DNA of 62,338 bases, counting the filler, from Dugesia japonica (lineage: Eukaryota): the NCBI GenBank assembly GCA_001938525.1. It is 5 parts of 5 records of this genome, joined end to end, with 100 filler letters (N's around TTAATTAATTAA, not from the genome) between each part and the next. Parts side by side here need not be neighbours in the genome. Positions count along the whole stretch, not along the records: positions 11,018 to 19,525 come from MQRL01636841.1; 4 more parts are not named here. One strand, 5' to 3'. Shown here piece after piece: positions 15,233 to 57,940 of this stretch. The translations under genes and the position numbers were made by a program. Position 1 is the first letter of the stretch; every line of letters starts with the position of its first letter. The notes under the pieces are model-generated. The model was not told where the DNA came from. It saw only the letters and a program-made list of their open reading frames with translations, and did not search any database.

Positions 15233-15522
15233 AAATCACACAATCTACTGAAGCTCATATATTAATAGGCAATCGTAATATGATGAAAGAAAATCATATA
15301 TCTGTTCCGGAAAATTCAGATTTAATGATGTCAAAGGATGAAGACAAAGGTAGAACAGTTGTGTTGATGGCTGTTGATAAAGTTTTAATTGCCATGATTT
15401 CTATTGCTGATCAAGTAAAAAAGGAAGCTTCATTAGTAGTATACATTTTAGAGAAAATGGGAGTTGATGTTTTTCTTCTAACGGGTGATAATCGAAAAAC
15501 CGCAGCTGCAATTGCCAAAGAA
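15233..15522 (+). CDS. ATP7: Internal exon of copper-transporting P1B-type ATPase (ATP7A/B homolog), N/P-domain region
   Basis: ILIGNRNMM...EDKGRTVVLMAVDKVLIAMISIADQVKKEASLVVYILEKMGVDVFLLTGDNRKTAAAIAKE closely matches ATP7A/B; AG at 15231-15232, GT donor at 15523. Confidence 0.92.
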
Positions 15523-16836
15523 GTAAAATATAATTAATATAATTTTTGTTACACTAAATTATTTTTGAATTTTCAATGTTAATTGTAGTTTAATTATAAA
15601 TTTTTATTTTTATTTACAATAACACAGTGTTACAAAAGATTTCAATCAACCAGTAACAATGCGTTGATATTTGTCGTGTTGATCCATAAGACTAATTTTT
15701 TAAATTTTTTTAGTTTGAAACATTCCCGACGATTTTTGTTTGATTAAACTCCATTTTATTTGGTTTAAACAAATCGAAATTGATCTCCGTGAATCGAGAA
15801 AACTATATTTTTGCCGTTGTTTGGGAATATCAACGTTTCCATAATGGAAACATGTTTTAGCGACCTCTGTTTATGTACTCGATTAAACTCGATCAATAAA
15901 ATATCACCTACTTATTCATTCTTATTAACTTGAAACATCATTTTCATTAGCTAAATTAAAATTATTTTTAAGCAATAAGCTTGAAAACTTATCAATTACT
16001 TGTTTTAAAATGGTATGTTTATTTATTGTATATTTAGTGAAATTAAACAAACTGTAAATATTGTCAAAGTTTTTAAGTTAATAAAATATGCATCTTGTAA
16101 ATTCTTGTGTATAAAATTGTTTAAGTATGAAAATTTATTTAAAGTTTAACTTTTAATTTAAGATTGAAAATTTATTTTTAAATTCGGTTTTCTACATTTT
16201 AGTAGTTTAGTTTCTAAAAATAAACTTTAAGTGATGAAATTTTGTAAATTTATAAAATTTGTAAATTATTATTGTATTGTTAATTTATTTACATTAATAA
16301 TAATAATTAAAATTTGGGAGTCTCTATATTTTGCATTGGACGGGCAGTCTATAAATTCCCAGGCACGTGTTGCTGTATTGCATTTATTAATAAAAAACGT
16401 TTGCAGTTTTGATATTTTTGGCGCGAATTTTTAAAATTTTTTTGGTGGGAAATTTCAAAAAAATTTCTTTTTTTTCTATCCACTAGCTTTTTTGATGGTT
16501 TAATTAACAATCACGTCCGGGAGCATCGGTTGTCGTTCTTTGTCAAGCAACCCTCGTTTTTCCAAAATATCTGAGAATTGCAAAATTAAATTTATTAAAA
16601 AAAATTTACAAATTAATAAATGTCCAACCTGTTTTCATAACATCGTCTTTAAAATCTTTCAATGTTGATTTTCTTGCATCCATTTTAATTTAATTACAAT
16701 AAATAATAATGAAATGTTATATATATATAATAAAAAACCACAACGTAATATATAAATTATTTGAAATTTAAATATCTAAATTTAAATTGATACTTTTTTT
16801 TACTTGAATTGTACATGTATCTGTGTTTCGAATTTT

Positions 16837-17295
16837 TTAAATATTTTCAAGCAAATTAAACAAATCTGAAGTAATGTTATTCACATATCCCTGAAAATAC
16901 AAATTTTTAAGACCTAGTATTACTAGTTTTCCTGTTGAGAACACATTTACACATAAAAGGTCATATTTTGCAAGTCTTATAGCAGGAAATAACTCCGGTT
17001 CGAACCAACAGTTGATAATTCTTACTTATTTATACACATTTATTGGAACTCCCATATTTACGACAATTGTTAGTGATTGTAATGGTAATTTATTTTATCA
17101 TAGGGTTCCAATGGTTTCTTGCAACCCATTATTCTACATTTTCCTGATCTGAAGAATATAATTTTATATTTATCACTTTTGACTTTGAATTGACATGGTT
17201 TACCTATAGGAAAGCTCATTTTTTGTAACTTCTTGAGACACTTCACCTCTGTAATTAACATTGGTAATTTTAATTAATGAATTAATGAAGAACAT
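16837..17295 (-). pseudogene. Compact TATA-binding-protein (TBP)-like gene, copy 1 (two frameshifts, one stop)
   Basis: ITNVNYRGEV...KIIFFRSGKCRIMGCKKP...LQSLTIVVNMGVPINVYK*VRIINCWFEPELFPAIRL....CVNVFSTGKLVILGLK; both TBP repeats recognisable (IFSSGKMVCTGAK, YEPELFPG, IFVSGKVVLTGAK); no introns. Confidence 0.85.
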
Positions 17296-17424
17296 TGAGG
17301 TTTAGGTGGAATTAATTAAATTTATTCGCTTAACACAATGTAAATAATGTACTAAAATATGGATAAATTAAAGAAAAACAAGATTTAAAAATTAATTGAA
17401 TTAAATAAATTAATTAAATATCAA

Positions 17425-18000
17425 AATGTTGGACCCAGTGGTAGCAGGAAAACTTTGCTTGTAAGTCAATTATTGAAATAAAATTTATTTAAGTCTAAAT
17501 TTAAAAACATATAGGGGAGGAGCATGGATTGACTAAATCTGTATTTTGTAATATTAAAATAAAAATTATAAATGGTTTTGATAAAAATTTGATGAAAAGA
17601 GTAAGACCAGGTGATACTATTGTTGTTGATGATCTTTATCAGGAGGTGAACAAAGAAAAAGATTTCAATAATTTCTTCACAAAGATATCAAGAAATCGTA
17701 ATATAAATGTGATATTTATTACACAAAATCTATTTCATCAAGGTGGTAGTCATAGAATTCGTAATTTAAACGTGCAATATTTGGTTCTATTCAAAAATCN
17801 NNNNNNNNNNNNNNNNNNNNNNNNNNNNNNNNNNNNNNNNNNNNNNNNNNNNNNNNNNNNNNNNNNNNNNNNNNNNNNNNNNNNNNNNNNNNNNNNNNNN
17901 NNNNNNNNNNNNNNNNNNNNNNNNNNNNNNNNNNNNNNNNNNNNNNNNNNNNNNNNNNATATATTCAATCCAAATGATATCAGAGTATATAAAGAAAATA
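17425..18000 (+). pseudogene. Maverick/Polinton A32-like DNA packaging ATPase
   Basis: Walker A VGPSGSRKT (G>R) at 17431-17454, Walker B TIVVDD, FTKISRNRNINVIFITQNLFHQG...LNVQYLVLFKN signature; partly in an N gap. Confidence 0.88.
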
Positions 18001-18278
18001 GTGAATTTTTCCTAATATTACAAAAAATGACAAAATTAAAGAAATTTGTATTTGATCAAGTAACTGATGGTGTTGTTAAACGCTAAAAAATGTCTTTCCA
18101 GAAGAGAAAGTATGGAAAAAATCAAAAACAATCGCATAAGAAACATCATGAAAATAAAAGGAAACAAATGAATATGTTTAAAAACTTGCAAAGAGGAGTG
18201 GAAAGAAACAGAGAATGGTGAACAGAAAAATTATTATTATAAACAAATAAATGGTATGTATTATTTTAATAAATAAAG

Positions 18279-18533
18279 ATGAGATTAAAAAGAAGCATTC
18301 CGTTTCTTACTGCATTGATTAAATCATCAAAACCTTCTAGAATGAGAATTTTACAATCATTCTCAACATATGTTATAGACGATTTACTTGAGATTATTAT
18401 AAATATTGTTCGTGGCAATGTAGATTTGAGTGCAGCCAAAAGGAAAACATTGAAGAAATATAAAAGAAATCTTAATTAACGCTTGAAAACACAAAAACTA
18501 GAAAATCAATTAGACGAGTAATGAATAATCAAG
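18279..18533 (+). pseudogene. Conserved small basic Maverick protein
   Basis: PFLTALIKSSKPSRMRILQ....VIDDLLEIIINIVRGNVDLSAAKRKTLKKYK fits the Maverick L..L....R..IL...I..I.E...N...GNV.L......L.K.K pattern. Confidence 0.7.
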
Positions 18534-19004
18534 NNNNNNNNNNNNNNNNNNNNNNNNNNNNNNNNNNNNNNNNNNNNNNNNNNNNNNNNNNNNNNNNNNN
18601 NNNNNNNNNNNNNNNNCAATGGTTGACTTTAATATTATTAGTTTCAATAAAATCAACTCAAATGAACAATGGATAAATTGCAACCATTACCTATCTTTGA
18701 CCTGATATTTGCATCGAATAGTTGTAATGAAGACAAAAATGACGACAATATAGACGGATCCAAAGAACCCAGTAGGTTTTTAAGGCTTAGAAATGTTGAT
18801 GAAAACAGCTCAAAAAAGGCAAAGACAGACGAAAAAGTGGTTATAGAGTCAGCTAGTGTGCAGTCCGAACAAGTCAATCTTGAAAAGATTTCCAACAAGA
18901 GCATAAAAAGCATATGATATTGATGATCTATGNTAAATACATCTAATGGAAATGATTCCACATTCAAAGATTAATAAAGTTTACAAGTATATTTTTGTCA
19001 TTTA

Positions 19005-19110
19005 TCGTTGTATTCCATAGATTTGCAAGAGCTGCTCTATTTTAGGGAATTGAAAGAATAAACAATACTATGTAAAATGGTATGGATACGAAAAGTAAGT
19101 TGGATATTAA
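19005..19110 (+). pseudogene. Maverick integrase C-terminal chromodomain fragment
   Basis: KQYYVKWYGYE..SWI. Confidence 0.6.
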
Positions 19111-19140
19111 CAATACAAATAGACAATCAAGACAAAAAGT

Positions 19141-19302
19141 ACGATGAAACCAAATAATTTCTATACATTTCTATACTTCCCAATTTACATGGATGGTAGT
19201 TGGGAAGTTGCAATGATGGATTTAACCTCTGTATATTCAGCCATGCCGATTTACAGTCAATCTTGGATTGTGTATGAATTACTTAAACCAATTGAGAAAT
19301 AA
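19141..19302 (+). pseudogene. Maverick minor capsid (penton/PX) N-terminal fragment
   Basis: KPNNFYTFLYFPIYMDGSWEVAMMDL matches the PX pattern N..S.F...L..PI.L.G.WEV.L.E. Confidence 0.72.
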
Positions 19303-19625: not shown

Positions 19626-20041
19626 CTCTTTTTACTTTAACACCTATTTCTATTTTTGAACACTGTTCACATGTTAAACCGGCAGCTCCAACTATGTTTA
19701 TTTCAGCCTGTTCCAACTCCCTACCTATTTCTCTTTTTGTTTCTGCTAACTGATCCTATACTGCTCTTAAACAATAATAACATGATTTTATTAATCGACT
19801 CTTTATTAATGGTATTGTTGTTGATTTGATTTCATTACATAGTTTACATCGGTTTTCACTATCGTTTACGTTTGCTTTTGGGCTAGCAGTATTCATATTT
19901 ATACTTTGTCTTGACCTCAAAGGATATCTGTTTTCGTCATTAAAAATTTCCGGTTTTTTATTTTTTTGTTTTTGTTTCTTTATTTCTGTCGAAAGATCTA
20001 CTTGATCGATTTTTGGTTCTTCATCTGTTGCCGCCGCTAAC
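19626..20041 (-). repeat. Diverged duplicate of the gypsy post-integrase Cys-rich tail
   Basis: Closely similar to 20217-20581 with scattered substitutions; continues further with CKLC..CYYC..AAGLTCEQC. Confidence 0.85.
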
Positions 20042-20340
20042 NNNNNNNNNNNNNNNNNNNNNNNNNNNNNNNNNNNNNNNNNNNNNNNNNNAAGTATACA
20101 TAAACACTTTGACCTTGAAAAAAATTTCCCACCAATCACAATCAAGTATACATAAACACTTTGACGTTGAAAAAATTTGATCTTGAGGGGGAGGGGTGTT
20201 TATGTGCGCTAGGATCTATCTACTTGTTCCAACTCTCTACCCATTTCTCTTTTTGTTTCTACTAACTGATCATACACTGCTCTTAAACAATAATAACATG
20301 ATTTAATTAATCGACTCTTTATTAAAGGTTGTTAATTTTA

Positions 20341-21728
20341 TTAATTTTTATTAATTGTTGTTGATTTGATTTCATTACATAGTTTACATCGGTGTTCACA
20401 ATCGTTTACGTTCACTTTTGGTCTAGCAGTAATCATATTTATACTTTGTCTTGATCTCAAAAGATATCTGTTTTTGTCATTAGAAATTTCCGGTTTTTTA
20501 TTTTTTCGTTTTTGTTTCTTTATTTCAGTTGAAAGATCTACTTGATCGATTTTTGGTTCTTCATCCGTTGTTGCTGCTAACTTGCATCTTGACACCTGCA
20601 CAAATCTTGGTTTCTTTAGTAGATTCCCTACTTCTTTCACTTTTAAATTCGTAGTTGTGATATCCAATACTACATAGAGACCCTTATTTGGCCATTTTAA
20701 TTTGTTTGATGTGCCAACCTCTATTGATGGTGTATTTACCAAAATTAAATCTCCGATTTTAAATTCATGTGGTTTGGTATCTCTGTCATATAGTTCTTTG
20801 TAACTCACTTGAAAGAATTTTGCATTTGATTTTGCTAATTTCCACAAATCTTCCATATGTTCTTTAATACCAGTCACATAATCACTTTCTTCCATATACT
20901 GAAATATCGGTGGTTGATGTTCTAAATCAATCGGCATGTTGCATTCTCGTCCATACATCACTTAAAGGGTGATGCTCTTGTTGCCGGATGTACACCCATC
21001 CTATAAGCAAATAAACATAAGTTTAACTGTTTGNNNNNNNNNNNNNNNNNNNNNNNNNNNNNNNNNNNNNNNNNNNNNNNNNNTCTTGTTGCCGGATGTA
21101 CACCCATCCTATAAGCAAATAAACATAAGTTTAACTGTTTGTCCCAATTCCTTTGATAACTGGATACGTACGTCGACAGCATTCTGACTAGAGTTTGATT
21201 AAATCGTTCAGTCAGCCCATAAGTCTGCGGATGATACGCTGAAGTTCTCAATTTGTGAATGTTGAAGTAGCTTGTAATTTCCTTCATTAGCTCGCTAATA
21301 AAATGTTTTCCTTGATCCGTTAAGATCTTCTTTGGACCGTATCGACTGAATAATTTTTCTACCAACACCTTTGCGATTTTGTCTGCTTTTTGGTCTTTTA
21401 ACGCAAATGCTTCTGGATACTTTGATAGATAATCCACAACTGTTAATATATAAACTTTCCCATTATCTGTTTCTGGAAATGGACCCACAAAGTCCATTGC
21501 AATTATATCCATTCGAGCTAATGGTACTGGTATTGGTTGTAATGGTACCTTTGACTTCTTGCCAGTGCTCCTTCTTGCTGCACATACTTCATACCGATTT
21601 ACCCAATCTCTAACGTAAGTAGTAATATGCGGCCAATAATATTTCGCTCGCAATTTTGATTCCGTTTTCTTTGCAGACATGTGTCCACCCAATAATCCAT
21701 TGTGATACTGTTCCAATATTTTAGTCAA
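20341..21728 (-). pseudogene. Gypsy integrase (HHCC zinc finger, DDE core, GPY/F-like region)
   Basis: YHNGLLGGH...YYWP...(C>Y)EVC; IAMDFVGP, ILTDQG, SAYHPQTYGLTERFNQTL, HPATRASPF, KWPNKGLYVV. Confidence 0.95.
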
Positions 21729-21729
21729 T

Positions 21730-24700
21730 TTTATCCTTGATTATTTCAACAACCGGTAGTTTGCTCATGTCAAACTTCGCTACCGGTCTACTTTGGGTAA
21801 ATATTATGGGTGCTTGTTTAATCAAATATGCAATCGCGATTGCAATTCTTGTGGGTGATGGACTTCCTGCAATTAATCCATCTACTGCTTCTTTCGTTTC
21901 ACTTTTCAAAGTAACTTTTGTTCCTTTCAAAGCAGGTAATTTTGTAATTAACGGCTCCAAAATTGAAGCAATTTTTTCAGATTCTTCCGTTATTTTTGCA
22001 CTTCCAATCCACATCTTTAGTTCTGGATATAATTTTAATAAAATTAGATGTATTAGTTTTTCCGTTGTCATTTCTTCTGATTCCATTTGTTCTAACATTT
22101 CTTGTGATACAACTGTTAGTTGCTTATTTTGCCTCACGTTTCACTTTGTTACTTTTTCTTGATTTGAAATTCATTAACCGTTGATTCCTCTTGAGTTCCT
22201 ACATCTTGTATTCTTTTTTCTGTCACTTCGTCTGACACATTCAATTCATCTACCGTTTCATCTGCAATTGTTTGTAATTCGGGTAATATCGGCAGTTCTG
22301 CATCAATATCCACTTCTTTGGAATTCCAATTTAGAGATCCTTCAATCTTTTGACTTCTCATTTCTCTTTCTTTTTCAGGCTCTACTTGAGTTAACAAGAC
22401 CTCGTCGTTTTCTTGAGTTTCTGTTCCTTCATCTTCACTTTCTGTAGAAGATGAACTTATTGATACTCGTATTACTGTTTTTGCTGCAATTGTTGATTGA
22501 GTTGCCCAGTCTTTGGTAGGACGTTGTCCAGCCGTAAATCTGGGCTTTTCTGCTAATACGTTTGTAGTTAGTTTCTTCTTCAGCAATTCTTTACCCACCA
22601 CTGGTTGTATATATATTTTATTTGGATGTCTCACTTGCACATCCAATGTTCCAATGATATCTTTGTTTAATAATTCCGGATTAATAAAAAAAAGTGAATA
22701 TGGGAAATTAAATGGCAATTTATTTTTTAATTGATCCACTATTTCATAAGCCATTGTTTCCACTCGTGTTTCTAGGCCGGTAGGTTCAATTATTCTGAAA
22801 GTAAATTTGAGAAGCTTTTCTTCTTCCATCTCTCGATTTTGCCATTTAGTAATTATAATTTTAAATTGATTTGGCCTCCAATCACATTCTTCTTTTAATC
22901 CTGATATTTGATAAGTTAAATCTCTCTTAATGATAAAACTCTTTTAATGATAAATCACTGCTGATTAGTTGATCCAATAATTGTTGCACTTCTTGTTTTG
23001 GTAAATTCTCTTGTTTATTGATGGTTGCAAATTGTTGTATTAAACTTTGCATGTTTACAATATTGTATCTGTTTCTTGTTGTTGCTGCTGCTATTGACTC
23101 GCAAGGTTGGCTTATTGGACACATTTCTTCGCTCAATTGATCTTGTAATCTAGATCTTTGTTCAGGTAGTATTATCGCTACCGTTTCTCGTATATCAATA
23201 TTTATTTCCTCTCCATGTATCTGTAATCCCAATGGCACCTCCGGATTAATCTCACCGATAAACAACTGAATCGTTTTTCTACACAATGTTTCTCTTGGTC
23301 GTTTTTTAGTTTACGGATTCCTTTCTTGATCTTCTGCTAAAAACACGTAAACATCCATCATCGATCCAGGCCAAATACCTGAAACCTTTACTGATTTCTC
23401 CTCATTTTCCTCGTTGATCTCTTCTCCACAATATATAGCGATATCTTCCCTTTTAGTTTCTAAACCAATTGTCTTTCCTCTTGGCATTTGCTTGTTAATA
23501 TACTTCAGTATTTCATTTATTAATTTCTCCCAAGTTGTAGTTGTTTTAATCTTAAATTCCTTTTCTGATTCATCTTGGAAATATACTGTAACATTTACTG
23601 ATTGCTTTGGTATGTTTTTAGCATGTATTTCCACAAATGTATTAACTAATTCACAGAACATTTCTCCTCCAATTAATTTCAATTAATTTAATTGATTTAT
23701 TACTTCTTCTATCTTTAAATTTCGCATTTGTTTATAATTTTCCTTTATTACTATTCCTACCTTGGTTAATGCCAACCTATATGTTGTCCATGGTTCGATT
23801 TCTGTTGTTATTTCTGCTGTTGACTCAATTTTCTCATCTATTATATGCGTAAAGCAATCCATTCGATCTATTTCCGTCATAAATATTTCCCTCATTCTTG
23901 CACCAATTCTATGTATTGGCTGTATTCGAAATCTTTTTGACATTTCATCATCAAGTTCTAATGTCAATTTCGTTATTTCTTCTGGTCGTAATGTAAATTC
24001 AATTAGATGCTCATTAATCTCGTTTAATTTATCATTTTCTAATATCATATAATCACACGTTATTCTATATTTATTCAATTCCTTCTTCAATGGCAGTTCG
24101 CTTATTATATCTTTCAATTCTCTTATTGTTGTAGTTTGAAATTTCGTAATAGTTTTAGATGTCAAACTTGTTGTCGACCCTTTACCTTCGCTCATTACTG
24201 GATAAAAAATTGACACCCCAAAATCGGCTCCAAGAATTGTCTCTTTTATCAGATCTCGATAACTCTTTGCTATTTTTATCCATTTTCTTCTTTTTTCCCA
24301 ATTAATTTGAAAATGAAAACAAGCGTCGCATAATAAATTCATCATCTTCCAATAACTTTGTTTCGGAATAATCTCTTTCCAACTAATAGTAATTTTTACT
24401 AAATTATCCATTGCTTCTAAATATCGACTATTTTCTCACAATTCATCGTCACTCGTCACTAGTTGTTAACTCGATTCGCTATACATTTCTGTAGCTACGC
24501 TGTTTGCTTTCTTTTTATTTTTCTTTACTTTATTCAAAACTTTACTCGAAAACGCTCTCAACATACATATTTGGGCTTTAGGTCCTTCTTTATCTTCTGG
24601 CATTGAAATCGATGCTTGACTGTCGTAATTATTATATACCATAACGTTTTTTTATACTTCCCGTCTAATGATCTCATGATTTGCACTGTTGTTTGAAGAT

Positions 24701-26090
24701 GTAGATGTGACAGTACTGAGGCTTTAAATAAAAACAATCTCTCGCTTTCAAATAATATCACTTCAGTGGCACCATCAGGCTTCAATCCATAGCTGTAAAT
24801 GTGCTCATCTACCGCTTCTTTATTAACAATCCCAACTGGTGAACAAATTATATATTGTTCGAGTGGTTTTGGCCATTTTAGCTCATTTAATGCTTATAAT
24901 AATGCTTCCACGGTTGTATTCTTTAATGAAAATTTTTGAGGAATATTTTGGTATCCAAATCGATGATTGTATTTAGATATTTGTTCTTCCATCAAATAAG
25001 CCATATTCATACAATCATGTGCGGGTTTTATCGCTTCCATCCTACTAATTTTATAATCATTCGTAGTTGACTCTTCTAAAATTTCTTTTTCATATTCATC
25101 GATTATATACTTCCATTGTAATTTAGTTGTTACATCTATGTGTCCTGGCTCTGTTAACTCAACGATATGGTTCATTATCGACCAATACGTTTTTCGATCA
25201 ATCTCATATTTTCTTTTTCTGGTTCTTCTCATTATTGTATCGACATATTCTCTCATTTGTGATTGACATTTTATTGATGTTTTCATCTTTTCGTTCGTCA
25301 CAAGTTGATCCATCGTCATTTCCGTTCCCTGTTTTGTATTTTCGTCATTTTTTACTGAGTTCTTTGATGCTTTTGCTTTTTCTATCTTTTTCTATAATTA
25401 CCCTTTTAGCTAGTTTCTTTTGTCTGTCCAATAAAGTTTGTACTCTCATCGTATGCTTAAAAAATGTCTTTTCCAAAGATTTAATTATTTCATTTATTGT
25501 TCGATACTCAAAATGCATAAACNNNNNNNNNNNNNNNNNNNNNNNNNNNNNNNNNNNNNNNNNNNNNNNNNNNNNNNNNNNNNNNNNNNNNNNNNNNNNN
25601 NNNNACCGAAATGTGTTCTTTAAGATTATCCTGATCAATCACTCTTGATGATGAACATAGTACATATTCGTATAATGGTTTCGGCCACTGCAGTTCATTT
25701 ATCGCTGTTATCAACCCTTTGACTGTTGGTGCTTTAATTTCAATTTTTCTCATTATATTCTGATATCCACATGGTATGGATTTAGTTTCATCATTACTTG
25801 TTGCGTATATGTATCTCTCAATTGACGGTCCCGCCACTTTTGGATCGCCTGTAATCGATTTTTTCAACGGCTTCATTATAATGACTTTGTAATCCTCGGG
25901 ATAAGTTTCTGTCATCAATTCCACTTCATACTTTTCCGCTTGAGTCTTCCAATTCATTTTGGTAACTGCATCTACATCCTTTGATTCCACGAGTTCAATT
26001 AAATGATTNATTATTTTAAAATATGCTTTTCGCTTAATTACATCTCTAAAGTCTTCAACAAGTTCTAGTTTTTCTTCTATCTGTCGTTGA
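21730..26090 (-). pseudogene. Non-canonical Gag-Pol insert: three ~200-aa diverged tandem repeats plus SUMO/ubiquitin-like modules
   Basis: Same-strand ORFs linked by single stops or frameshifts; repeated RK.YW.IMNH..EL..W...YE and TT...L...I.EL...K.L..Y.IC...EHI motifs; SUMO-like VNVTVYFQDESEKEFKIKTTT at 23341-23598. Confidence 0.65.
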
Positions 26091-27844
26091 ATTGCGGGAT
26101 GATTTTCTAACGACTTATCGTCTAAAATCTTCTTGGAACGTATCATATTAATTTGTCCAGCATTAGAATTCTTCATTCCTCTTGCTCTCAATCTATCCTG
26201 AGCTATTTGTTGTTCTTCCAATTGTTGTCGCAGATACTCTTGCTCTTGNNNNNNNNNNNNNNNNNNNNNNNNNNNNNNNNNNNNNNNNNNTTGTAACATA
26301 TTTATTTGATGCTGAGTTTTGGCTCTGCTACTATTTATTTCCTGCTTTAATGCTTCATTTTGCTGTCTCATTTTCTCAATTGTAGGATTTAAATTTGGTT
26401 TTGCATTAAAGTTATTATAATTTGATTTATTACCGTCATTTCTGAAGCAATTTCTACTAATATCTCCTGACTTATTACATATATAACATACCGGTGGCTT
26501 GTTCTGAAAACAAGTTTCTCCATTATGCCCGGGTTTCTGACAAGTTGTACAAATTTTTATTGTTTTTTCTGGCGGTCTAGATTTGCACTCTCTTGCTCGA
26601 TGTCTAATTTTTCCACAATTATAACAAGTCATATTTGATGATTGCCAGTTCACTTGTTTGTTGTTATTATTATTCGACTTAAAATTATTCGTTTGTTCTC
26701 TCGTCTTCTCAGGTGATAGTGACTTCAATAATGGCTGGGCTCTTGGGATGAAATCAGATACCTTCACAACATCTTTAGTCTGTTCATTTTGCTCTTCTAT
26801 TTGAAACACTTTACCCACTTTTGGTTGACGAACGTCCACATTATGACATACTCTTGCCGAATTTATGGCCAACTCTACGGTTTGCGGTTGAGTTAAATGC
26901 ACATGTCTCTTTACGTCCGCATTTCTCAACCATTTTATAAATGCTCCAATAATAACTCCTTCATTAATATTATCTCCCATAGCTATTTTCCCAAGTCTTC
27001 GCAATTCAGCCGCAAATGAAATGATTCAACTTTATGCTGTCGTCTGTTCATAAAATCTTGCATTTCCCGACCTTGTAATGCAGATGCTTTAAAAATATCT
27101 AATAACAATGTTTTAGCTTCTTCCCAAGTTTTCACTTCTTTATCTTTCTCAGTGGCTTTATCCCAATAAATAGTTTTATTAGCTCCAACTAAATACTAGT
27201 GGTAAACGTTCTACTGCTGTTTCATCGCTCCAACGACATGCGTTGATATGAATTTCATAGTTTGTGATGAAATCGAGTATTTTATCTGGATCTCCGTCAT
27301 ATTTTTCACTACTGAAATCAGTTCTCCATTCTTTACGTTTATCGTCCATATCCGATGTATGTTGTCTACTATTTAACGACATTTTATTTAATTCTTTGAT
27401 TTGCTCTTGATCACTTCAATCTTCTGCTTCGCTCTCTGATTCCGAATTTGTTTGAAAATGCGACACAGGTACTGCGATATTTGCTTTATCGGCTATTGAA
27501 TTATCACTATATTCGCTATCTGTTATATTCGCTTCTACTATCTGATTCTGATTTTCAATTTTTGACTCTGTTTCTATATTTTCTCTTGATTCTAAGGATT
27601 TCCTTGTTATTTTTAAAGGAAAGCAGTTAGGTGATTGATTTGTTTCTGAGGATATTGGCTTTTTAGATGTCCTTGATTCCTTTCTTGTAAGTGATGATGC
27701 TCTTTGGGACTTTGCTTGGTGCTCTTTTCTACTTCCAACAATAGATCTCGTATAATATCTGGGCTTTTCCGAATCCTCAATGGCTATCGTAGTATAACAA
27801 GTGTTCTCTTTAATCTGTAATATAATAATATGCTGCCCTTTTCC
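26090..27844 (-). pseudogene. Gypsy Gag with capsid-like domain, three CCHC zinc knuckles and coiled coil
   Basis: EKYDGDPDKILDFITNYE...WSDETAVERLP; CYNCGKIRHRAREC, CTTCQKPGHNGETC, CYICNKSGDISRNC. Confidence 0.92.
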
Positions 27845-29042
27845 CTGAAATATAAAATAAAAGCCTTTCGGCCTATGCATATTAATTAGGAATAAATTAA
27901 TCAATTAGCCTTAATCTTAACTTATTCATTTCATCTAATATTACAATTAATGCTTATTTCCTAGTTTTTTAGACAATACTATCTTTTATGTAAAAATCTA
28001 CTTAACTCTCAAGATTAAATCCTACACATATCATTTTATTATTTTACAATATTATTCAATCTACCTTTACATGTTATGTTATAATACTAAAGTGTTTTTA
28101 ATTTAACTAAATCTTTTTAACTGGCACTTATTCAATTTATTATTTATTTATTTTCTTATATTTTATATTGCACTCTGATTATTACAAAATTTATTATATT
28201 ATCCCTATTTGGTTTTGCTTCTAATTTTTCTTTCAATTTGTCAAGATAATATTTCAAAATTTCTGTCTTCAAAATTAAAACCTTCGATTCTCTAAGTGTT
28301 GTTTTCTCGAATTTATGCGTAATTTTAACTAGATTCTACGATTCCTACTCCCATTCAGATTTTCTATCAAATCCCTTCTTCGTCTTCACTCCAAGAACTC
28401 AATGATTTTCTATAATCTTTCAAAAGTGTCAGCGAGTTTTCTTTCAAACCCAAGGTTTTCTTTCAAACTCAAGGCTTTCTTTCAAGCCCATTTCTAAAGT
28501 TCTTCACACTTAGTCCCAACTATTGTGTACTTCAAATAAATTAAACTTTCATAATTTTTCAAAAAGAAATAATTTTCTCAAGTTTTTAGATTCCCATACA
28601 AAGAATACTGCTTTCAAACTTTCCAACAAAGCAACTCCAAATTCTACAACTTTTCTTTCCTTCCGCCAAAATTCAAACATTTTCCAATAATAAAATGAAT
28701 ATGTGAAGTACCATGCTAACAAGGTATGTTAAAAATAACCAAAAAAAATGATTATAAATTTTTGTTTATCACTAAACTCTTCATATTAATATCTTTATCA
28801 TCGTTTAAAAAAATCTTTACAAGTTTTATTAAATTTTGTTAGGTAAATTATCAGGAGAATTCTCGCAATTTCAAAAATTTTTCAAAAAAATAAACACCTT
28901 GCAGAGTTGTGTAAGGAAAATAACATGCTAAATACTTTATTTTCAACAAATTGTAGTCATTAAATATGACATCAAAAGTTGTCATACATCCGAAGACAAA
29001 TCAAATCGCATTTGTCTTGGATGCCGCAATTGTTCAAAGTCG

Positions 29043-29429
29043 TCAAGTTTTTTCTTTCTTTACTCCTTCTTTAATGAATTTCTCCAGACATTTTGCTTTT
29101 TCATCTTTATCTTTCAGAAGAAACTCCATTCTTGCTACACCTTCGGCCAACCGGCTCATCTTCACCTTAAGGTCCTTGATGATCTCTCTCAACATAATGA
29201 CCTCTTTTCCAACTTTTCTCTGATAGAAAGCCACGCGCTGTCGGCGGGTGTATTCGAGGCAATTCTGGATGGTGAGCTTTGTAATGAGCTTCCGATGGAC
29301 GGGCCAATGGACCCAATATTTTCCATCCTGGTCAATGAAGTCATCATCATTATCGCTATCTGGTGGACTGCGCGTCAGGCTGGTGTTTGGCAGGGTTCTG
29401 TATTTTGTTTGCTTATTTTGGCTGGTCAT
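29043..29429 (-). CDS. Intact accessory ORF (128 aa from MTSQ) in the leader of the gypsy element, unknown function
   Basis: GC-richer open frame inside an AT-rich leader, same strand as gag; W-rich motif then coiled coil; TTATTGTAG acceptor-like site directly before the ATG. Confidence 0.5.
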   Translation of the reverse strand: MTSQNKQTKYRTLPNTSLTRSPPDSDNDDDFIDQDGKYWVHWPVHRKLITKLTIQNCLEYTRRQRVAFYQRKVGKEVIMLREIIKDLKVKMSRLAEGVARMEFLLKDKDEKAKCLEKFIKEGVKKEKT

Positions 29430-30907
29430 GCTACAATAAACATTTACCATTAAACACTGGTGTTACATACTCATATATCAAACCAATGATAGATATATAA
29501 CTTATTATAATGGGCTTGTAAATAATTGAAATACACCAAACCAACACAACTTGTAAACCCTACCCAAAATTGAAACTTCATTAGATATTCAAGGGTAAAT
29601 AATTTTATCATCAACTTTCATCATCATTAATGTTATCTTTTTATTCAAAGTAGAACAATTTTATATCCAAAAAGGAACCAATTTAACTATGTTAATCCAC
29701 ATTATCTTTAATATCGTTTTAAGGTGAATCAATCATTTTACAACTAATTTCAATTTTATTTTTCTAATCAGTATTAAAAACCACATTTAAAGGTGGATTT
29801 CATCATTACTTTATAATACTTTAATATCCCAATTCAATGTAGTCCATTGTTATGAAAATCTGGCTTTCATTTCATTTATCAAAATTTTACTTTCAATTTT
29901 AATTAATCATTAATTTATCAACTAACTATCTCTAATTTTATAATTTATTTTCTCTGGTTTAATACATTTCTACCACAAAATTTCTGATCTTATGTCGACT
30001 GTTTAGTTTGATTATTTCTTATTATTATCTCTTATGTTACTTCTTAGTTAAAACTAATTTCATTGCTTATATCAATACTCTTATATTATCATCCCAATTT
30101 ATTGTCACTCTATCTTACATTAACATTTTATACAGTGTAATTTTCATTGCTGCAAAGTCAAATTTATCTTTATCGTCATCAAGATCCTCTGTTAGTCCTC
30201 GTTTTATTTTTAATTGTTATCATTATTTAAAATTCCTCATAATAACCTTCAGTGTTTGACTCATGTTTCAGTATTATTTTAAAATCATTAATTAATAATA
30301 AAAATAAAATATTATCATAATTTATGACGAGTCACTTGTCTCTTTCTCTCATACTAATTTTTGTTCTTTATGACCAATTAGCAGAGAATCATAGCTCAAG
30401 TGATTCGCCATCTTATGTTAGGGAGTACATTGAGTGTATCAAAAGGTTTTTCTCTTTTTCTTTGTTTTAAGTATTATTAATAAACGTTAGCATTATCTTT
30501 TCATTGGGGTAAAACAATTTTATCTCAACATAAATCAATTTAAGTTTTGTTAGCCAATAAATAATTTCAACATAAGTTATAGATGAATCGATTTTACCAG
30601 AAATAAATCGGTGTCAATCCACATTAACTTCGACATCATTTCAAAGTTAATTCATTTTCAATAATAAAATATTCTATTTTATTTGTCATTTAACCACAGC
30701 TGTGCCCTCAACATTTCCCACTTTCAACAAAAGTTTCATCACTACTTGTTGACAATTTAGTTTTATCAATAAAATTTTTCTACGAATAAATTTATTAACG
30801 TTAATAAAATTTTCAATAATTTAATAAAACTATCCCATCTTATTTAACTTTTGATTTAAATAATGAACAGCAAAACAACAAACAAAATGTTTACGAAAAT
30901 AATTATT

Positions 30908-32029: not shown

Positions 32030-32385
32030 GTGACAGTGTAATTCATTATCATAAAATCTACCTAAATTTTTTCATTATCTAAATCAGTAATTCCATAANT
32101 AAAAGGTTTTGTATTATAAACTTGAGTTACTACAAATACTTAATTTGTCCATTTAGCTGTAAATTCTTTTTCGAATTTGTATTTATATTTAAAGATTCTA
32201 ACTCGATATCCAATTTTAAATTTCTGTTTAAAACTAAAGTTATCATTTTCATGATTATGATCTTTGATTATTTCTTTTATTTTATCTGGATTTTCACTAG
32301 CTTCTTTTGGAGTTGTTTTTATACTGGAGTGAATTGTATTATTATAATCATTTACAATTTTATCCAACAAGATTTTATTTATTAA
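32030..32385 (-). pseudogene. Maverick-type integrase C-terminal fragment
   Basis: LDKIVNDYNNTIHSSIKTTP...KFKIGYRVRIFKYK..FEKEFTAKWT...TKPF.YGITDLDNE..LGRFYDNEL. Confidence 0.85.
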
Positions 32386-32752
32386 TTTTTTTTAAAATCA
32401 ACTCAAAAAATTTTTTAATTAATACAGAAAAGTCTTAGATATTTTAGATATACTATACTTAGAATTTTTTAATTTTAAATTTTTGTATTTTTTTTTTAAA
32501 ATTGTAATATTTTTAAAATAATTTTCAAAAAAATACATCTAACATCTAAATCTCCTTGATTTGTGTCTGGCAACTAACCTGATAATTCACCATAAATATT
32601 TTTATAAGTTGAACTAGTTGTTACAAAATTTAACATTGTAGATGAAATTTCTGGTTATTCTGCGTTAGCTCATTCTGTATTATTTCACTCTTCATTAGCG
32701 TTAGCGAATTACTAACCATTTTATTAATAAAATTTTGCAATACCTTAACTGT

Positions 32753-39495: not shown

Positions 39496-39849
39496 GAATT
39501 ATATTAATTTCGATAAATTTTGAGTTACTTGATATTTTCGAAAAATGTTACCAAATCTAGGAAGACAGCTGTATATATTCGTTATTAAGCATTTTTGCTT
39601 AGGTGATTTTTTAACTTTACAGTCACTTTTACCTACTGAGTTAAATAATACTAAATTCGAGTCCATTGCCGTTAGTTGCGCACATATGTTTGAGTGCTAA
39701 AATCTGAACTTTGAGATTTATTCACCACAAAATTTTATTTATTTCATTTCTACAAATAAATAAGGTTTGGAGTAAAGGTTACAAAGGTCCATAGAGCGGT
39801 AAGGTTTACTAAAGCACACATTTATAAAAATTAAATTGAAACATAAAAT

Positions 39850-39960
39850 TCATTAGGAGCAGAATGTAAAACAGAGCTTGAGAAAAATTACTACAAACTA
39901 TTGAACAACAGTTTGTATCGGAAATCGATAGAAAATGTAAAGAAAAGGAAGAATTTGCGA
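39850..39960 (+). mobile_element. Maverick protein-primed DNA polymerase B fragment (motif B)
   Basis: ECKTELEKNYYKLLNNSLYRKSIENVKKRKN (compare KLxNNSxYGKxxEN). Confidence 0.8.
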
Positions 39961-41303
39961 TCTTCTTGCGAAGAATTATTTTGGTAATATAATATATAGA
40001 ATATACAATTATTTAAAATAGAATGAATGAAAAAAAAATTTGTGTGCCGCGAGAAAATTTATATTTTAGTGTGCCGCAGACTAAAAAAGTTTGCGAGACA
40101 CTGATTTAAATTCCGGTGACCTTTAAAAATAAATTTTGATTTCATTTCGCAAGTATGAACTTGTTCCGATAAATTTAGATTTAAAAAAAGAACACGAACA
40201 AACATGCTCAGTATCAAATAATCGTACTACAGAAGCGGCAATGAATATCAAATTGTAAAATGCCAGTAAATACACACCAACAATGAATTATCAACGGCCG
40301 TAGTACGCATGATTCAAATCTGAAAAAAGCAAATACTAACTGAGAACAATATAGACACACATTGTAAAAAGTAATGATACGTGGCTATGTTTAAATTTGA
40401 AGAAACAAACAATTTAAACTGAATTTAGAAATATGAAACTCGAAGAAAGATGAAAGACGGCGATATACAAAAAGATTTAAAAAACTATTTAAGCAACAAT
40501 AGAATTACTTAAAAAAAAACAAAACTAAATAACTCTGAAAAACTTTAATTCGTTATTTTGAGAACTATTTCGGTTTAATCTCTTAAAAAGANNNNNNNNN
40601 NNNNNNNNNNNNNNNNNNNNNNNNNNNNNNNNNNNNNNNNNTAGAAAATGTAAAGAAAAGGAAGAATTTGCGATCTTCTTGCGAAGAATTATTTTGGTAA
40701 TATAATATATAGAATGGACAATTATTTAAAATAGAATGAATGAAAAAAAATTTGTGTGCCGCGAAAAAATTTATATTTTAGTGTGCCGCAGACTAAAAAA
40801 GTTTGCGAGACACTGATTTATATTTCGGTGACCTTTAAAAATAAATTTTGATTTCATTTCGCAAGTATGAACTTGTTCCGATAAATTTAGATTTAAAAAA
40901 AGAACACGAACAAACATGCTCAGTATCAAATAATCGTACTACAGAAGCGACAATGAATATCAAATTGTAAAATGCCAGTAAATACACACCAACAATGAAT
41001 TATAAACGGCCGTAGTACGCATGATTCAAATATGAAAAAAGCAAATACTAACTGAGAACAATATAGACACACATTGTAAAAAGTAATGATACGTGGCTAT
41101 GTTTAAATTTGAAGAAACAAACAATTTAAACTGAATTTAGAAATATGAAACCCGAAGAAAGATGAAAGACAGCGATATACAAAAAGATTTAAAAAACTAT
41201 TTAAGCAACAATAGAATTACTTAAAAAACAACAAAACTAAATAACTCTGAAAAACTTTAATTCGTTATTTTGAGAACTATTTCGGTTTAATCTCTTAAAA
41301 AGA
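39929..41303. repeat. ~660-bp direct duplication flanking an N gap; each copy includes a hAT/MITE-like terminus
   Basis: 39929-40591 vs 40642-41303 with a few substitutions; aaaagtttgcgagacactg is the reverse complement of a CAGTGTyTCxCAAAC-type TIR, preceded by repeated gtgtgccgc. Confidence 0.85.
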
Positions 41304-48554: not shown

Positions 48555-50560
48555 CTATCTTCCATCCCCTTTTTAGGAATTTTTTGATCTTCTCTACGTT
48601 TCTTTCAAGACTTTTTCCCTTTGTATCTTTCAGGATGTAACGTCTGTCGTGAATCTTCGTCTTGATCTTATAGGGTCCTTCATAACGATCTTGGTTCTGG
48701 TTTCGACTTTCACTAAGACCTCATCACCGACATCGAATTGTTTTTTGGTTAGTTTTTCTTCATCTTGCTCTTTGTGCTCTTTTTGAGAATCAGTTTCGTA
48801 CCATTTTTCTATGTTTATTTTCTTCACAAATACGATTTCAGCAGAGCTTTCCCGACAACCATTTGTTTGGTAGCATTCAAAGCAAATTCTATTTCTGGCT
48901 CTATATGATCACTTTATTCATCATTTCCTGGAACTTACCTGGTGCAGCTGTAATTCCAAAAGGCATTCTTTTGAAATAAAATTGCCCTTCTTTGGTGGAA
49001 AAAGCCGTCTTCTCTTGAGAATCCTCAATGAGTTCCACTTGGTAATATGCATTTTCCTAGTCTATTGGGCTAAAATACTGTGTATTTTCCAAAGCATCCG
49101 GCATTTCATCCATGTTTGGCACAGGAAAAACTTGTCTTTCTGTTATTGCATTGAGCTGTTTAAAATCTAATCATAATCTTATATCTTTTTTTTCCTTTTT
49201 CTAAACGCAGATTAATGGCGTTAAAATTATTACTCCGGATGATACCATTATCATACAGATTCTTGATGGCCTCTTCAATTTTCTCTTGTAGATTCATTGG
49301 TTGACGATATGGTTTTATGTGGATTTGACCTCCGTTAGTGATTATTCGAAGCTTCGTTGAATGTGTGCATCCAATGTCCCAATTATCCGCCATAAATACA
49401 TCTTTATTATTTTGAATAATTGCCTTTAATCTATGATTTTTGTTAATTTCTAGAATCTCTATTTCATGTATCAATCGTTCACCCGTAATTATCTGCCTTC
49501 TAAATTTTGCCTCGATGTTGCAAACAAATCTTTCTCGACGATTATTCATATATCTACCCTGCACTTTTTTTGAAGATGATACCCAAAAGTATTCTGAGAT
49601 TCCACTCCACCAATTAGATCTGATATCAATTTCTCTACTTTTATAAACGTTACTTCCTTGCACACCTCTGAAACTACAACTTCAACACGTATCTTTCCAA
49701 TCGTATCCAATGAGCTGTTATTCGTGCAATGAAATCGTTCCTTGCTTTCCTCTAACATTGTTTCTCTGAGTCTATTAAATCATGTCATATTTATTACATT
49801 TATTCTTGCTCCTGTATCCAACAAACAATCAAACTGTTTATCCTAGATCATCACTGAAATGCTAGGTCTCCTTTGCATTTTATCATACAAAATTTCTACA
49901 TTCTGTTTCTCTTCAATTATTCCTATCACTTCTGCTTTGTTAACTTCCTCATCATTGAAACTTTATCGTTTTAGGAATATATAAACTTTTTTCTCACTTT
50001 ACTCGTCTCATCCCATTTCTCGGCCTCTTGAGGCTATTCAAATGGTATCTCGTTTAATGAATAGCTCAGATCAACTGCTTTACTAATGGCGTCCTGCCTT
50101 TTGGGTATTCTTTTCTTGGATTTTATTTTCTATTATGCTCTAAGAAAATCTGTATTCATTCTCATCATAAAATTCTTTTCGAATAGCATGAATTGGTTTG
50201 GTCCGACTCCAATCATTTGTTTTTTGTCCGCTTTTAGAATTGTATATTCTGTCTTCTAGTCTAGGTATATTAATGTTCGAATAACATTCTTCTGCTCTGT
50301 GACCTGGTCTTTTACATCTACCACATACAATTTCTGTGCACATCCTTCTAACATGACCAATCTTATCACACACAAAAGATTTTGGTGGTTTCTTGTCGAG
50401 GAAATTTTTACTTAAATGCCCTTTCTTGTGACAAGTCCAACATTCCACATGAGAATTTTTTGGACACTATCTTTTTGTATGCCCATAACTCTGACATGTC
50501 TAACACTGTGGTTTTGTTCTTTTAGTAATTCTCTCAATATTTTGTCTTCTTTCTCTGAAA
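48555..50560 (-). mobile_element. Internally deleted Ty3/gypsy element: zinc knuckles, protease, RT N-half, integrase tail, PPT
   Basis: CWTCHKKGH / CGRCKRPGHRAEEC; FDCLLDTGARINV; KPYRQP..LQEKIEEAIK; RMPFGITAAPGKFQ; FDVGDEVLVK; PPT AAAAAGGGGATGGAAGA at ~48558-48575. Confidence 0.9.
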
Positions 50561-57259: not shown

Positions 57260-57494
57260 GTAAACTAAGCGAGTATCATGTAAAACGAACCCGAACCAAG
57301 GGAATGCGAGTCTGTACTCGAGTTACGAGTCAGCGGCTTCATTCCGAAGATCTGGATATTTTGGGGAACACCAGATTCAAATTCATCGCGAGATTTTACG
57401 AGATCAGTTACCCTAGACTTAATTTTATAGATGGTTCGACCCCCCTAGATTTAATCATATAAGAAATCAGTCTACCTAGGGTAAAACCCCAACA
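57260..57494 (+). mobile_element. 3' end of an LTR with a hairpin-rich U5, abutting the second TBP-like gene
   Basis: Ends in CCCCAACA; hairpins ggaatg/cattcc and atctgg/ccagat; ttaccctag (57408-57416) complementary to terminal ctagggtaa (57476-57484). Confidence 0.6.
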
Positions 57495-57940
57495 CTAATA
57501 TTAATTATAAAGGGCAAGTATCTCAAGAAATCACTAGTAAAATGAAATTTCCTATCGATAAAGCATCACAAATAGTTGATAAGTGGAAAGTATACAATTA
57601 TTTTATTTAAATCAGGGAATTGTAGAATCATGGGATGCAAGAAACCAATAGAAATGAAGCGTTTACAATATTATATTAAAAACACTCAGTAACAATCTTT
57701 AAATATTGTAGTCAATTTGAAACAATCAGTCAATTTGCATACATTAGCAATAATAACAAAGTGTATGTATGAACCTAAATAATTTCAAGTATTGAAACTT
57801 CCTTAATACACTCCTACATAAGTTAATGTATTTGCTATTGGAAAGTTGTAATACTTGGTTTCAAGAATTTATATTATCAGAATCAAGTTTATAATATAAT
57901 ATTAGATTTAAACAGTTTAATCGAGAAAATACAATACTAG
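57495..57940 (+). pseudogene. Compact TBP-like gene, copy 2 (5' end cut by an LTR; several stops and frameshifts)
   Basis: NINYKGQVSQEITSKMKFPIDK...TIILFKSGNCRIMGCKKP...QSLNIVVNLKQSVNL...CMYEPK*FQVL.....VNVFAIGK.VILGFKNLYYQ; collinear with copy 1. Confidence 0.82.

What the first reader, a model, noticed from the sequence alone, without database searches (positions are those of the whole stretch)
16837..19302. Maverick/Polinton carrying its own compact TATA-binding-protein-like gene
Seen: an intronless ~150-codon gene with both TBP saddle repeats sits head-to-head with the Maverick packaging ATPase (about 135 bp from its ATG to the Walker A), upstream of the small core ORF, chromodomain and minor capsid fragments. 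Three of the four TBP DNA-kinking phenylalanine positions appear kept (FFRSGK, EPELFP, VFSTGK); the NPKRF position is lost. There is no N-terminal extension and the helix linking the repeats looks shortened. Established: TBP homologs occur in large nucleocytoviruses, but TBP is not among the canonical Maverick core genes (pPolB, INT, ATPase, protease, capsids). Inference: this endogenous virus lineage captured a TBP, either to drive its own AT-rich promoters or to act as a decoy that redirects host Pol II/TFIIB. I do not know of a description of this.
Basis: partly seen in the sequence, partly recalled or inferred. Interest (0 to 1): 0.88.

Follow-up and report, generated by a model that had tools for sequence, protein, structure and literature searches.

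The report
Maverick-encoded TBP with private promoter
This is a broken copy of a gene shared by a large group of virus-like Maverick elements; it encodes a trimmed TATA-binding protein with a rebuilt DNA-facing surface, which likely reads a private promoter word found in front of the elements' capsid and packaging genes.

Summary
Confirmed. A TBP-fold gene lies head-to-head with a Maverick ATPase, followed by core-like, integrase and minor-capsid relics. This copy is dead (two frame changes, one stop); a second dead copy is at 57.5 kb. Intact relatives of about 150 aa fold like TBP (Z 12.8), form one Polinton clade apart from the cellular TBPs sampled, evolve under purifying selection (median dN/dS 0.21) and sit beside ATPase, integrase, capsid, protease and pPolB genes. 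The family keeps three of four phenylalanines and both TFIIB-contact glutamates, lacks helix H2, and has a near-invariant, more polar DNA face. Its elements carry YATAAAC, mostly 32-41 nt before the start codons of ATPase (19 of 21), core (17 of 18) and capsid (10 of 10) genes, but not before TBP itself (1 of 56). Best reading: an early-made viral TBP opens late genes through host TFIIB/Pol II (0.6; binding untested). Starrett 2021 labels a TBP in one figure; ten library searches found no description of this family. The scan found this before on other DNA (8 notes shown), and those notes led me to test the motif.

The parts
16837..17295 (-). TBP-like gene, broken (frame changes near 17222 and 17095, in-frame stop at 17026-17028); homology to intact relatives begins at about 17268
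   Evidence: C-terminal piece 76% identical to intact P0001
17389..18002 (+). Maverick packaging ATPase relic, broken, with an assembly gap at 17800-17958
   Evidence: 66-74% identity to the L007 ATPase; relatives hit Pox_A32
18238..18244 (+). TATAAAC word, 41 nt before the ATG of the core-like ORF; candidate late promoter
   Evidence: family-wide spacing
18279..18533 (+).
   Evidence: 46-49% identity to the cluster found in 17 related loci
18757..19014 (+). Integrase N-terminal relic with several stops
   Evidence: 50% identity, E 6e-22, to the L002 integrase
19045..19095 (+). Integrase C-terminal chromodomain piece; the catalytic middle of the integrase is missing; holds an ATAAAC variant at 19058
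   Evidence: relatives are rve + Chromo
19156..19296 (+). Start of a probable minor capsid protein gene (weak match)
   Evidence: E 8e-5 to 0.014 in a sub-window tblastn
57494..57940 (+). Second, more decayed TBP-like copy of another subfamily; no Maverick gene found next to it
   Evidence: 64% nucleotide identity to the first copy over 467 nt

Best explanation
The window holds a dead, cut-down Maverick/Polinton whose lineage encodes its own compact TBP-fold protein, which in intact elements likely acts as a late-gene promoter factor. Shown: fold, linkage to Maverick genes, purifying selection, residue pattern, and the promoter word with its spacing. Inferred: (1) the TBP gene is made early, from a host-type promoter; (2) its rebuilt concave face binds YATAAAC in preference to an ordinary TATA box; (3) the kept C-lobe glutamates dock host TFIIB, so Pol II starts about 30 nt downstream, leaving a leader of only a few bases; (4) loss of helix H2 frees it from TFIIA, TAF1, Mot1 and Brf1 contacts. 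The result would be a two-step cascade that switches on ATPase, integrase, protease and capsid genes without a viral RNA polymerase. The copy in the window is non-coding.
For: Fold: model of P0001, pLDDT 93; 44 Foldseek hits at E<=0.001, all those listed being TBP; Z 12.8, rmsd 2.7 over 145 residues. Linkage: 37 of 80 TBP-picked loci, and 25 of the 35 that are 3 kb or longer, hold a Maverick hallmark ORF; L081 holds pPolB, ATPase, INT, minor and major capsid, protease and TBP. Selection: median dN/dS 0.21 in 30 pairs. TBP and ATPase distances correlate (rho 0.62, 21 loci, 0 of 2000 permutations). Residues in 62 family rows, yeast numbering: F116 62, F190 61, F207 62, N69 56, E186 55, E188 62 kept; F99 is P in 60, V71 N in 54, V122 R in 61, T124 M in 61, N159 S/T in 62, L205 N in 62. 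Motif: 85 sense / 15 antisense (expected 31/26) and 78/5 (expected 17/17) in the two subgroups of the clade, against 9/5, 15/21 and 5/7 in three other Polinton sets. It lies within 100 nt before ATPase 19 of 21, core 17 of 18, MCP 10 of 10, PLA2 8 of 9, but TBP 1 of 56 and pPolB 0 of 4; 70 of 127 instances lie 30-49 nt before the ATG and none at 12-31 nt. No TFIIB-like gene was found in loci L001-L090 or the window. KSHV ORF24, a proven late-gene TBP mimic, has polar residues at four of the same positions (PMC12529657, Table 1).
Against: No binding or transcription data. Motif and protein belong to the same clade, so their co-occurrence is one evolutionary event, not repeated evidence. Host TBP has been crystallised on a C(-25) TATA variant (entry title 1qn3; that this equals TATAAAC is my recall), so the host factor may read the word. 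V122R and I194R are listed as DNA-binding-null changes in yeast TBP (PMC2265533 Table 1), so the protein might not bind DNA at all. The control elements are few and mostly fragments. A host-type TATA+Inr pattern was found before only 13 of 56 TBP genes, with no chance control. RNA reads on this stretch are few, mostly under 95% alike and on both strands.
Confidence: 0.6

Rival explanations
1. Host TBP reads YATAAAC as a weak TATA box, and the element's TBP-like protein is a timing repressor or has a role unrelated to this word.
For: The word is one base from a canonical TATA box and lies at normal TATA distance; wild-type TBP binds TATA variants in crystals (titles).
Against: In AT-rich DNA the C at position 7 is strongly preferred: 60 TATAAAC and 34 CATAAAC against 4 TATAAAA and 11 TATAAAT before 101 late-gene starts. 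Polintons with a four-Phe TBP or with a TBP+TFIIB pair lack the bias.
Confidence: 0.17
2. The protein is a decoy that soaks up host TFIIB (or Brf) and dampens host transcription, without specific DNA binding.
For: E186, E188 and L189 are kept; several DNA-face changes would be null in yeast TBP.
Against: The changed DNA-face residues are nearly invariant (R122 61, N205 62, S/T159 62 of 62 rows) while the rest diverges strongly; a sponge would not need that. It does not explain the promoter word.
Confidence: 0.12
3. The protein bends or marks AT-rich DNA for another step, such as integration targeting, replication at the ends or packaging.
For: It lies next to the ATPase or near the integrase in many loci.
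Against: The word tracks start codons, not ends; the TFIIB-contact glutamates are kept.
Confidence: 0.08
4. It is a processed pseudogene of host TBP or TRF2 that landed beside a Maverick.
For: Intronless and broken in this window; the second copy has no Maverick neighbour.
Against: The modelled relative is 13-23% identical to solved TBPs but the window piece is 76% identical to an intact 150-aa relative; own clade (100/99); conserved Maverick context; purifying selection.
Confidence: 0.01

Closest known systems
Cellular and archaeal TATA-binding protein (Pfam PF00352; PDB 1ytb, 1c9b, 2z8u)
   Same: Two-lobed saddle fold over the whole length (Z 12-13); F116, F190, F207, N69, P191; TFIIB-contact E186 and E188.
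   Different: About 150 aa, no N-terminal tail, helix H2 replaced by a loop, F99 replaced by Pro, six DNA-facing positions changed to fixed, mostly polar residues.
Beta/gammaherpesvirus late-gene TBP mimics (KSHV ORF24; PMC12529657, passages and section 15 read)
   Same: Viral TBP fold with a polar DNA face at positions 122, 124, 161 and 205, paired with a private TATA-like word before late genes, using host Pol II.
   Different: ORF24 is 752 aa, keeps all four Phe, lacks the TFIIB glutamates and works in a six-protein complex; here the factor is a bare 150-aa saddle and its function is untested.
TBP homologues of large DNA viruses (Ravarani et al. 2020, PMC7221094; passages and sections 7, 11, 12 read)
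   Same: Virus-borne TBP that has lost the N-lobe regulator surface.
   Different: Those mostly come with a viral TFIIB and vary at the TFIIB glutamates (about 40% conserved); this clade keeps them and no TFIIB gene was found. The genomes are 15-20 kb with no RNA polymerase gene seen.
Mavericks/Polintons/adintoviruses (Starrett et al. 2021, PMC8502044; sections 3.2, 3.4, passages and part of the supplement read)
   Same: pPolB, rve integrase with chromodomain, ATPase, protease, major and minor capsid, PLA2 in some. The legend of Fig. [quoted passage not shown]
   Different: I could not see the figure, so not which element carries it. The text and the Fig. S2 labels do not describe TBP as a conserved gene of animal elements, nor a promoter word. 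VLTF3 is the transcription factor reported for coral polintoviruses (PMC11131425, passages).

Membership tests
TBP family (PF00352) | Two-repeat saddle fold | tested here: met
   Model of intact relative P0001 aligns over 145-149 residues, Z up to 12.8
TBP family (PF00352) | Pfam score above the curated cut-off | tested here: met
   Intact relatives 47-63 bits against 22.9; the window's separate pieces score 17.4 and 22.0
Canonical cellular TBP | Four DNA-kinking phenylalanines | tested here: not met
   Three kept; F99 position is Pro in 60 of 62 rows
Canonical cellular TBP | Basic helix H2 surface for TFIIA, TAF1, Mot1, Brf1 | tested here: not met
   No long helix between strands 45-51 and 66-78 in the model; gaps at 133-138 in the compact subgroup
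Canonical cellular TBP | C-lobe glutamates that contact TFIIB | tested here: met
   E186 in 55 and E188 in 62 of 62 rows; both present in the window copy. Binding itself not tested
Canonical cellular TBP | Binds and bends a TATA box, supports initiation | not testable with these tools
   Needs EMSA/SELEX and transcription assays
Maverick/Polinton | Packaging ATPase and rve integrase | tested here: met
   Relics in the window; intact in relatives
Maverick/Polinton | Double jelly-roll major capsid, minor capsid, adenain-type protease | tested here: met
   Met in relatives: MCP model matches iridovirus, PBCV-1 and mavirus capsids (E 5e-16); Peptidase_C5. In the window only a weak minor-capsid start; the minor-capsid name rests on position, not on a profile hit
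Maverick/Polinton | Protein-primed DNA polymerase B | tested here: met
   DNA_pol_B_2 in L055; 8 TBP-picked loci and L081 hold this ORF. The window has only a fragment 20 kb away, probably of another copy
Maverick/Polinton | Terminal inverted repeats and 6-bp target duplication | tested here: inconclusive
   None found in the window or in 15 loci self-compared; the contigs are partial and the window copy is cut by a gap and an LTR element
Viral late-gene TBP mimic (works like ORF24) | Private TATA-like word before virion genes | tested here: met
   YATAAAC counts and spacing
Viral late-gene TBP mimic (works like ORF24) | Factor is needed for late transcription | not testable with these tools
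   No expression or knock-out data

The most novel reading that the evidence does not exclude
A widespread clade of 15-20 kb Mavericks runs a true early/late programme with a single-protein switch: a minimal TBP with changed specificity, in which the N-lobe that lost its phenylalanine and gained an invariant arginine reads the C of YATAAAC, and which plugs into host TFIIB while escaping TFIID and Mot1 control. It would be the smallest natural orthogonal TBP-promoter pair in eukaryotes, and one of at least two independent TBP captures by Polintons (another lineage carries TBP plus TFIIB).
Probability: 0.5. Interest if true: 0.88.

Novelty: new variant of a known kind. Interest (0 to 1): 0.72.

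Why it matters
How Mavericks turn on their capsid genes, and whether they are self-sufficient viruses with a timed programme, is an open question (my reading of the field). A conserved factor and a precise promoter word make it testable with one small protein and a 7-base site. It would add a route, parallel to herpesvirus ORF24 and giant-virus TBP/TFIIB, by which DNA viruses re-aim host Pol II, and it offers a natural altered-specificity TBP for studying what helix H2 and the fourth phenylalanine do.

Tried and rejected
No whole genome is held, so copies in this genome and their TIRs could not be counted. IMG/VR gave 1 locus for the family profile, a giant-virus-type contig, and none for the ATPase alignment, one MCP or a cellular TBP. 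The MCP alignment had no PDB hit by sequence. The ESM Atlas did not complete, so host taxa of the family are unknown. No RNA holder was listed for the stretch. Laid RNA reads (32, 712 and 81 reads in three runs of a related organism) fall on both strands; in the one clearly stranded run they are mostly sense over TBP but mostly antisense over the ATPase, so I draw nothing on expression. The host could not be named: its ATP7-type exon is 54-61% identical to the 24 hits, the named ones all insects. The idea that the word is an initiator-type element right at the ATG was rejected: the 7 close instances all have a second copy at 37-45 nt. The sister grouping of this clade with the four-Phe Polinton TBPs (99/92) vanished under the mixture model, so I do not claim it. 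No complex prediction was run: no animal TFIIB was at hand and the contact depends on DNA. A small spliced ORF at 16.5-16.7 kb did not give a consistent frame. Literature: ten searches; only Starrett et al. link TBP to such elements. Its supplement was cut at 4 million characters and the GenBank maps were not seen; bioRxiv supplements, subscription journals and Repbase reports were not searchable and may hold a description.

Full report
1. Observation. The unbroken 62-aa C-terminal piece matches PDB TBPs (best E 1.5e-6; 35 of 37 hits are TBP entries); the 67-aa N-terminal piece gives weak TBP hits; both hit Pfam TBP below its cut-off. The copy is dead: frame changes near 17222 and 17095 and a stop at 17026-17028. 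A second copy at 57494-57940 (+) is 64% identical in DNA over 467 nt and more decayed.

2. Surroundings. On the plus strand follow a broken ATPase (66-74% identical to that of L007), a small conserved ORF, the N-terminal part of a Maverick integrase, its C-terminal chromodomain with the middle missing, and a weak match to the start of a minor capsid gene. An assembly gap and an LTR-type element with gag- and integrase-like ORFs follow from about 19630. An exon of a copper-transporting ATPase at 15259-15525 marks host DNA; the host looks like an animal but could not be named. In a DNA run of a related organism (host exon differs at 44 of 313 letters), 8517 contigs were laid on the 2.7-kb stretch, with summed depth above 100,000 over TBP and ATPase against 16 on the exon. 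The tool warns this is no copy number, but it fits a large repeat family; some contig joints run collinearly from the TBP into the ATPase region, so the head-to-head layout is not unique to this copy.

3. The family. A search with the C-terminal piece gave 31 proteins among 42 candidates, 147-207 aa, the best nine 61-77% identical. A profile of them found 57 clusters (50% identity level) at E<=1e-30. The model of P0001 (pLDDT 93) matches TBP along its whole length. A metagenome scan returned 79 loci and IMG/VR one. Of these 80, 37 hold a Maverick hallmark ORF; of the 35 at least 3 kb long, 25 do. The other 10 are a giant-virus-type contig, a cellular-type TBP, seven loci with accessory ORFs also seen in hallmark loci, and L045. 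Hallmarks were checked by Pfam (rve, Chromo, DNA_pol_B_2, Peptidase_C5, Pox_A32, PLA2) and by folding the capsid (double jelly-roll hits). Of 24 loci with TBP and ATPase, 22 have them on one strand; L007, whose ATPase is closest to the window's, has them divergent. Of 9 loci picked by ATPase alone, 2 carry this TBP. dN/dS in 30 usable pairs among 54 ORFs has median 0.21 (0.05-0.66; pairs not independent). TBP and ATPase distances correlate (rho 0.62, 21 loci).

4. Tree. I aligned 90 rows and built trees on 60 and 36, dropping near-duplicates and a gappy row. The divergent Polinton TBPs form one group (100/99 in both), and the compact, H2-less ones a subgroup (96/94, 98/93). They do not nest among the cellular TBPs sampled. 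A single origin of all 21 Polinton TBPs in the smaller set is rejected (AU p 0.018), with long branches as a caveat. No named animal TBP or TRF2 and only two giant-virus-type rows were in the set, so the donor is unknown.

5. Anatomy. Yeast numbering was anchored on the match to 1rm1 through a fungal-type TBP (P0145); the DNA-contact list is from PMC12529657 Table 1 and the TFIIB and N-lobe signatures from PMC7221094. In 62 family rows: F116, F190, F207 are kept (62, 61, 62), F99 is Pro (60); N69 is kept (56); V71 is Asn (54), V122 Arg (61), T124 Met (61), N159 Ser/Thr (62), V161 Thr/Ser (61), L205 Asn (62); E186, E188, L189 are kept (55, 62, 53); helix H2 positions are gapped in the compact subgroup. 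The window copy shows these family residues. A changed but fixed DNA face points to a different DNA target, not to decay. ORF24 has polar residues at 122, 124, 161 and 205. Against this, V122R is a DNA-binding-null change in yeast TBP (PMC2265533, passages).

6. Promoter word. Earlier scan notes mentioned a shared TATA-like word, so I tested it. ATAAAC is the top enriched hexamer before 257 gene starts (100 observed, 14.5 expected). YATAAAC is strand-biased in the clade (85/15 in 12 loci, expected 31/26; 78/5 in 11 loci, expected 17/17) and not in Polintons with a four-Phe TBP (9/5), with a TBP+TFIIB pair (15/21) or picked by ATPase without this TBP (5/7). It is biased in non-coding DNA too (83/18), so lysine-rich coding does not explain it. 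With starts refined by family alignment it lies within 100 nt before ATPase 19 of 21, core 17 of 18, MCP 10 of 10, INT 10 of 14, PLA2 8 of 9, protease 4 of 6, minor capsid types 4 of 7 and 5 of 5; but before TBP 1 of 56, pPolB 0 of 4 and several small ORFs rarely. Of 127 instances, 54 lie 30-39 nt and 16 lie 40-49 nt before the ATG, none at 12-31 nt. That is the geometry of a TATA box about 30 nt before a Pol II start (established knowledge) with a very short leader. A host-type TATA+Inr pattern precedes 13 of 56 TBP genes, 9 of 14 genes of two small families, 0 of 21 ATPases and 0 of 10 MCPs (no chance control). The window keeps one exact word, 41 nt before the core-like ORF. From memory, the N-lobe Phe pair sits at the 3' end of the TATA box, which is where the word differs; I did not verify this in a paper.

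7. Mechanism and odds. Most likely (0.6) the protein is an early-made, altered-specificity TBP that opens virion and packaging genes through host TFIIB and Pol II, free of the H2-binding regulators. Rivals: host TBP reads the word (0.17); TFIIB decoy (0.12); non-transcriptional DNA bending (0.08); host pseudogene (0.01). Protein and word share one clade, so their pairing is a single observation.

8. Novelty. Viral TBP mimics are known from herpesviruses and large DNA viruses, and Starrett et al. 2021 label a TBP in the legend of a figure on MELD viruses (figure not visible; no TBP in the part of the supplement held). Ten library searches found no account of a conserved Maverick TBP family or of this word; three further Polinton or Bamfordvirae papers searched for the terms do not mention TBP. 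I rate it a new variant of a known kind. The scan has noted the same family on other DNA and the TBP+TFIIB type too; these notes are leads, not support. Interest 0.72: the copy here is a relic, but the family and its promoter make Maverick gene control directly testable.

Noticed in passing
The ten stretches fetched show Polinton units, some in tandem at about 18-kb spacing, with a different divergent TBP followed by a 232-252 aa TFIIB-like gene (zinc ribbon; weak TFIIB repeat), some with two capsid genes and a split pPolB. Probably misbinned eukaryote DNA.
   Followed up: partly
L073-L078, e.g. L076:1302-2728: Polintons with a TBP that keeps all four phenylalanines and helix H2, next to a PC4 coactivator gene; no YATAAAC bias.
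   Followed up: partly
L069:2065-3582: Two TBP-like genes in a row beside major capsid and protease genes.
   Followed up: no
window 16270-16700: Repeated in the related organism (depth rises from 16270); holds an E2F-like site at 16417 and, on the minus strand, a TATA run plus TCATT before a short ORF starting at 16683. May be the element's end or an early promoter; no homologue found.
   Followed up: partly
window 32065-32391 (-) and 39721-39981 (+): Separate Maverick-type integrase and pPolB fragments, probably from other copies.
   Followed up: no
window about 19630-29500 (-): LTR-retrotransposon-like ORFs (integrase 20958-21740, gag-like 25508-27025) directly after the relic; a second such element near 48600-50500.
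   Followed up: no
ATPase genes of L014, L043, L049, L055 and others: The promoter word is often written into the last codons of the upstream gene (the ATPase ends in YKQ; also inside the chromodomain and capsid C-termini), so coding sequence doubles as promoter.
   Followed up: partly
L014:1502-2135 and relatives: Two small ORF families upstream of TBP look like exons of one spliced early gene (donor- and acceptor-like ends).
   Followed up: no
L081-L089: Nine Maverick-type ATPase contigs sit inside prokaryote MAGs, i.e. likely eukaryote or virus contamination of those bins.
   Followed up: partly
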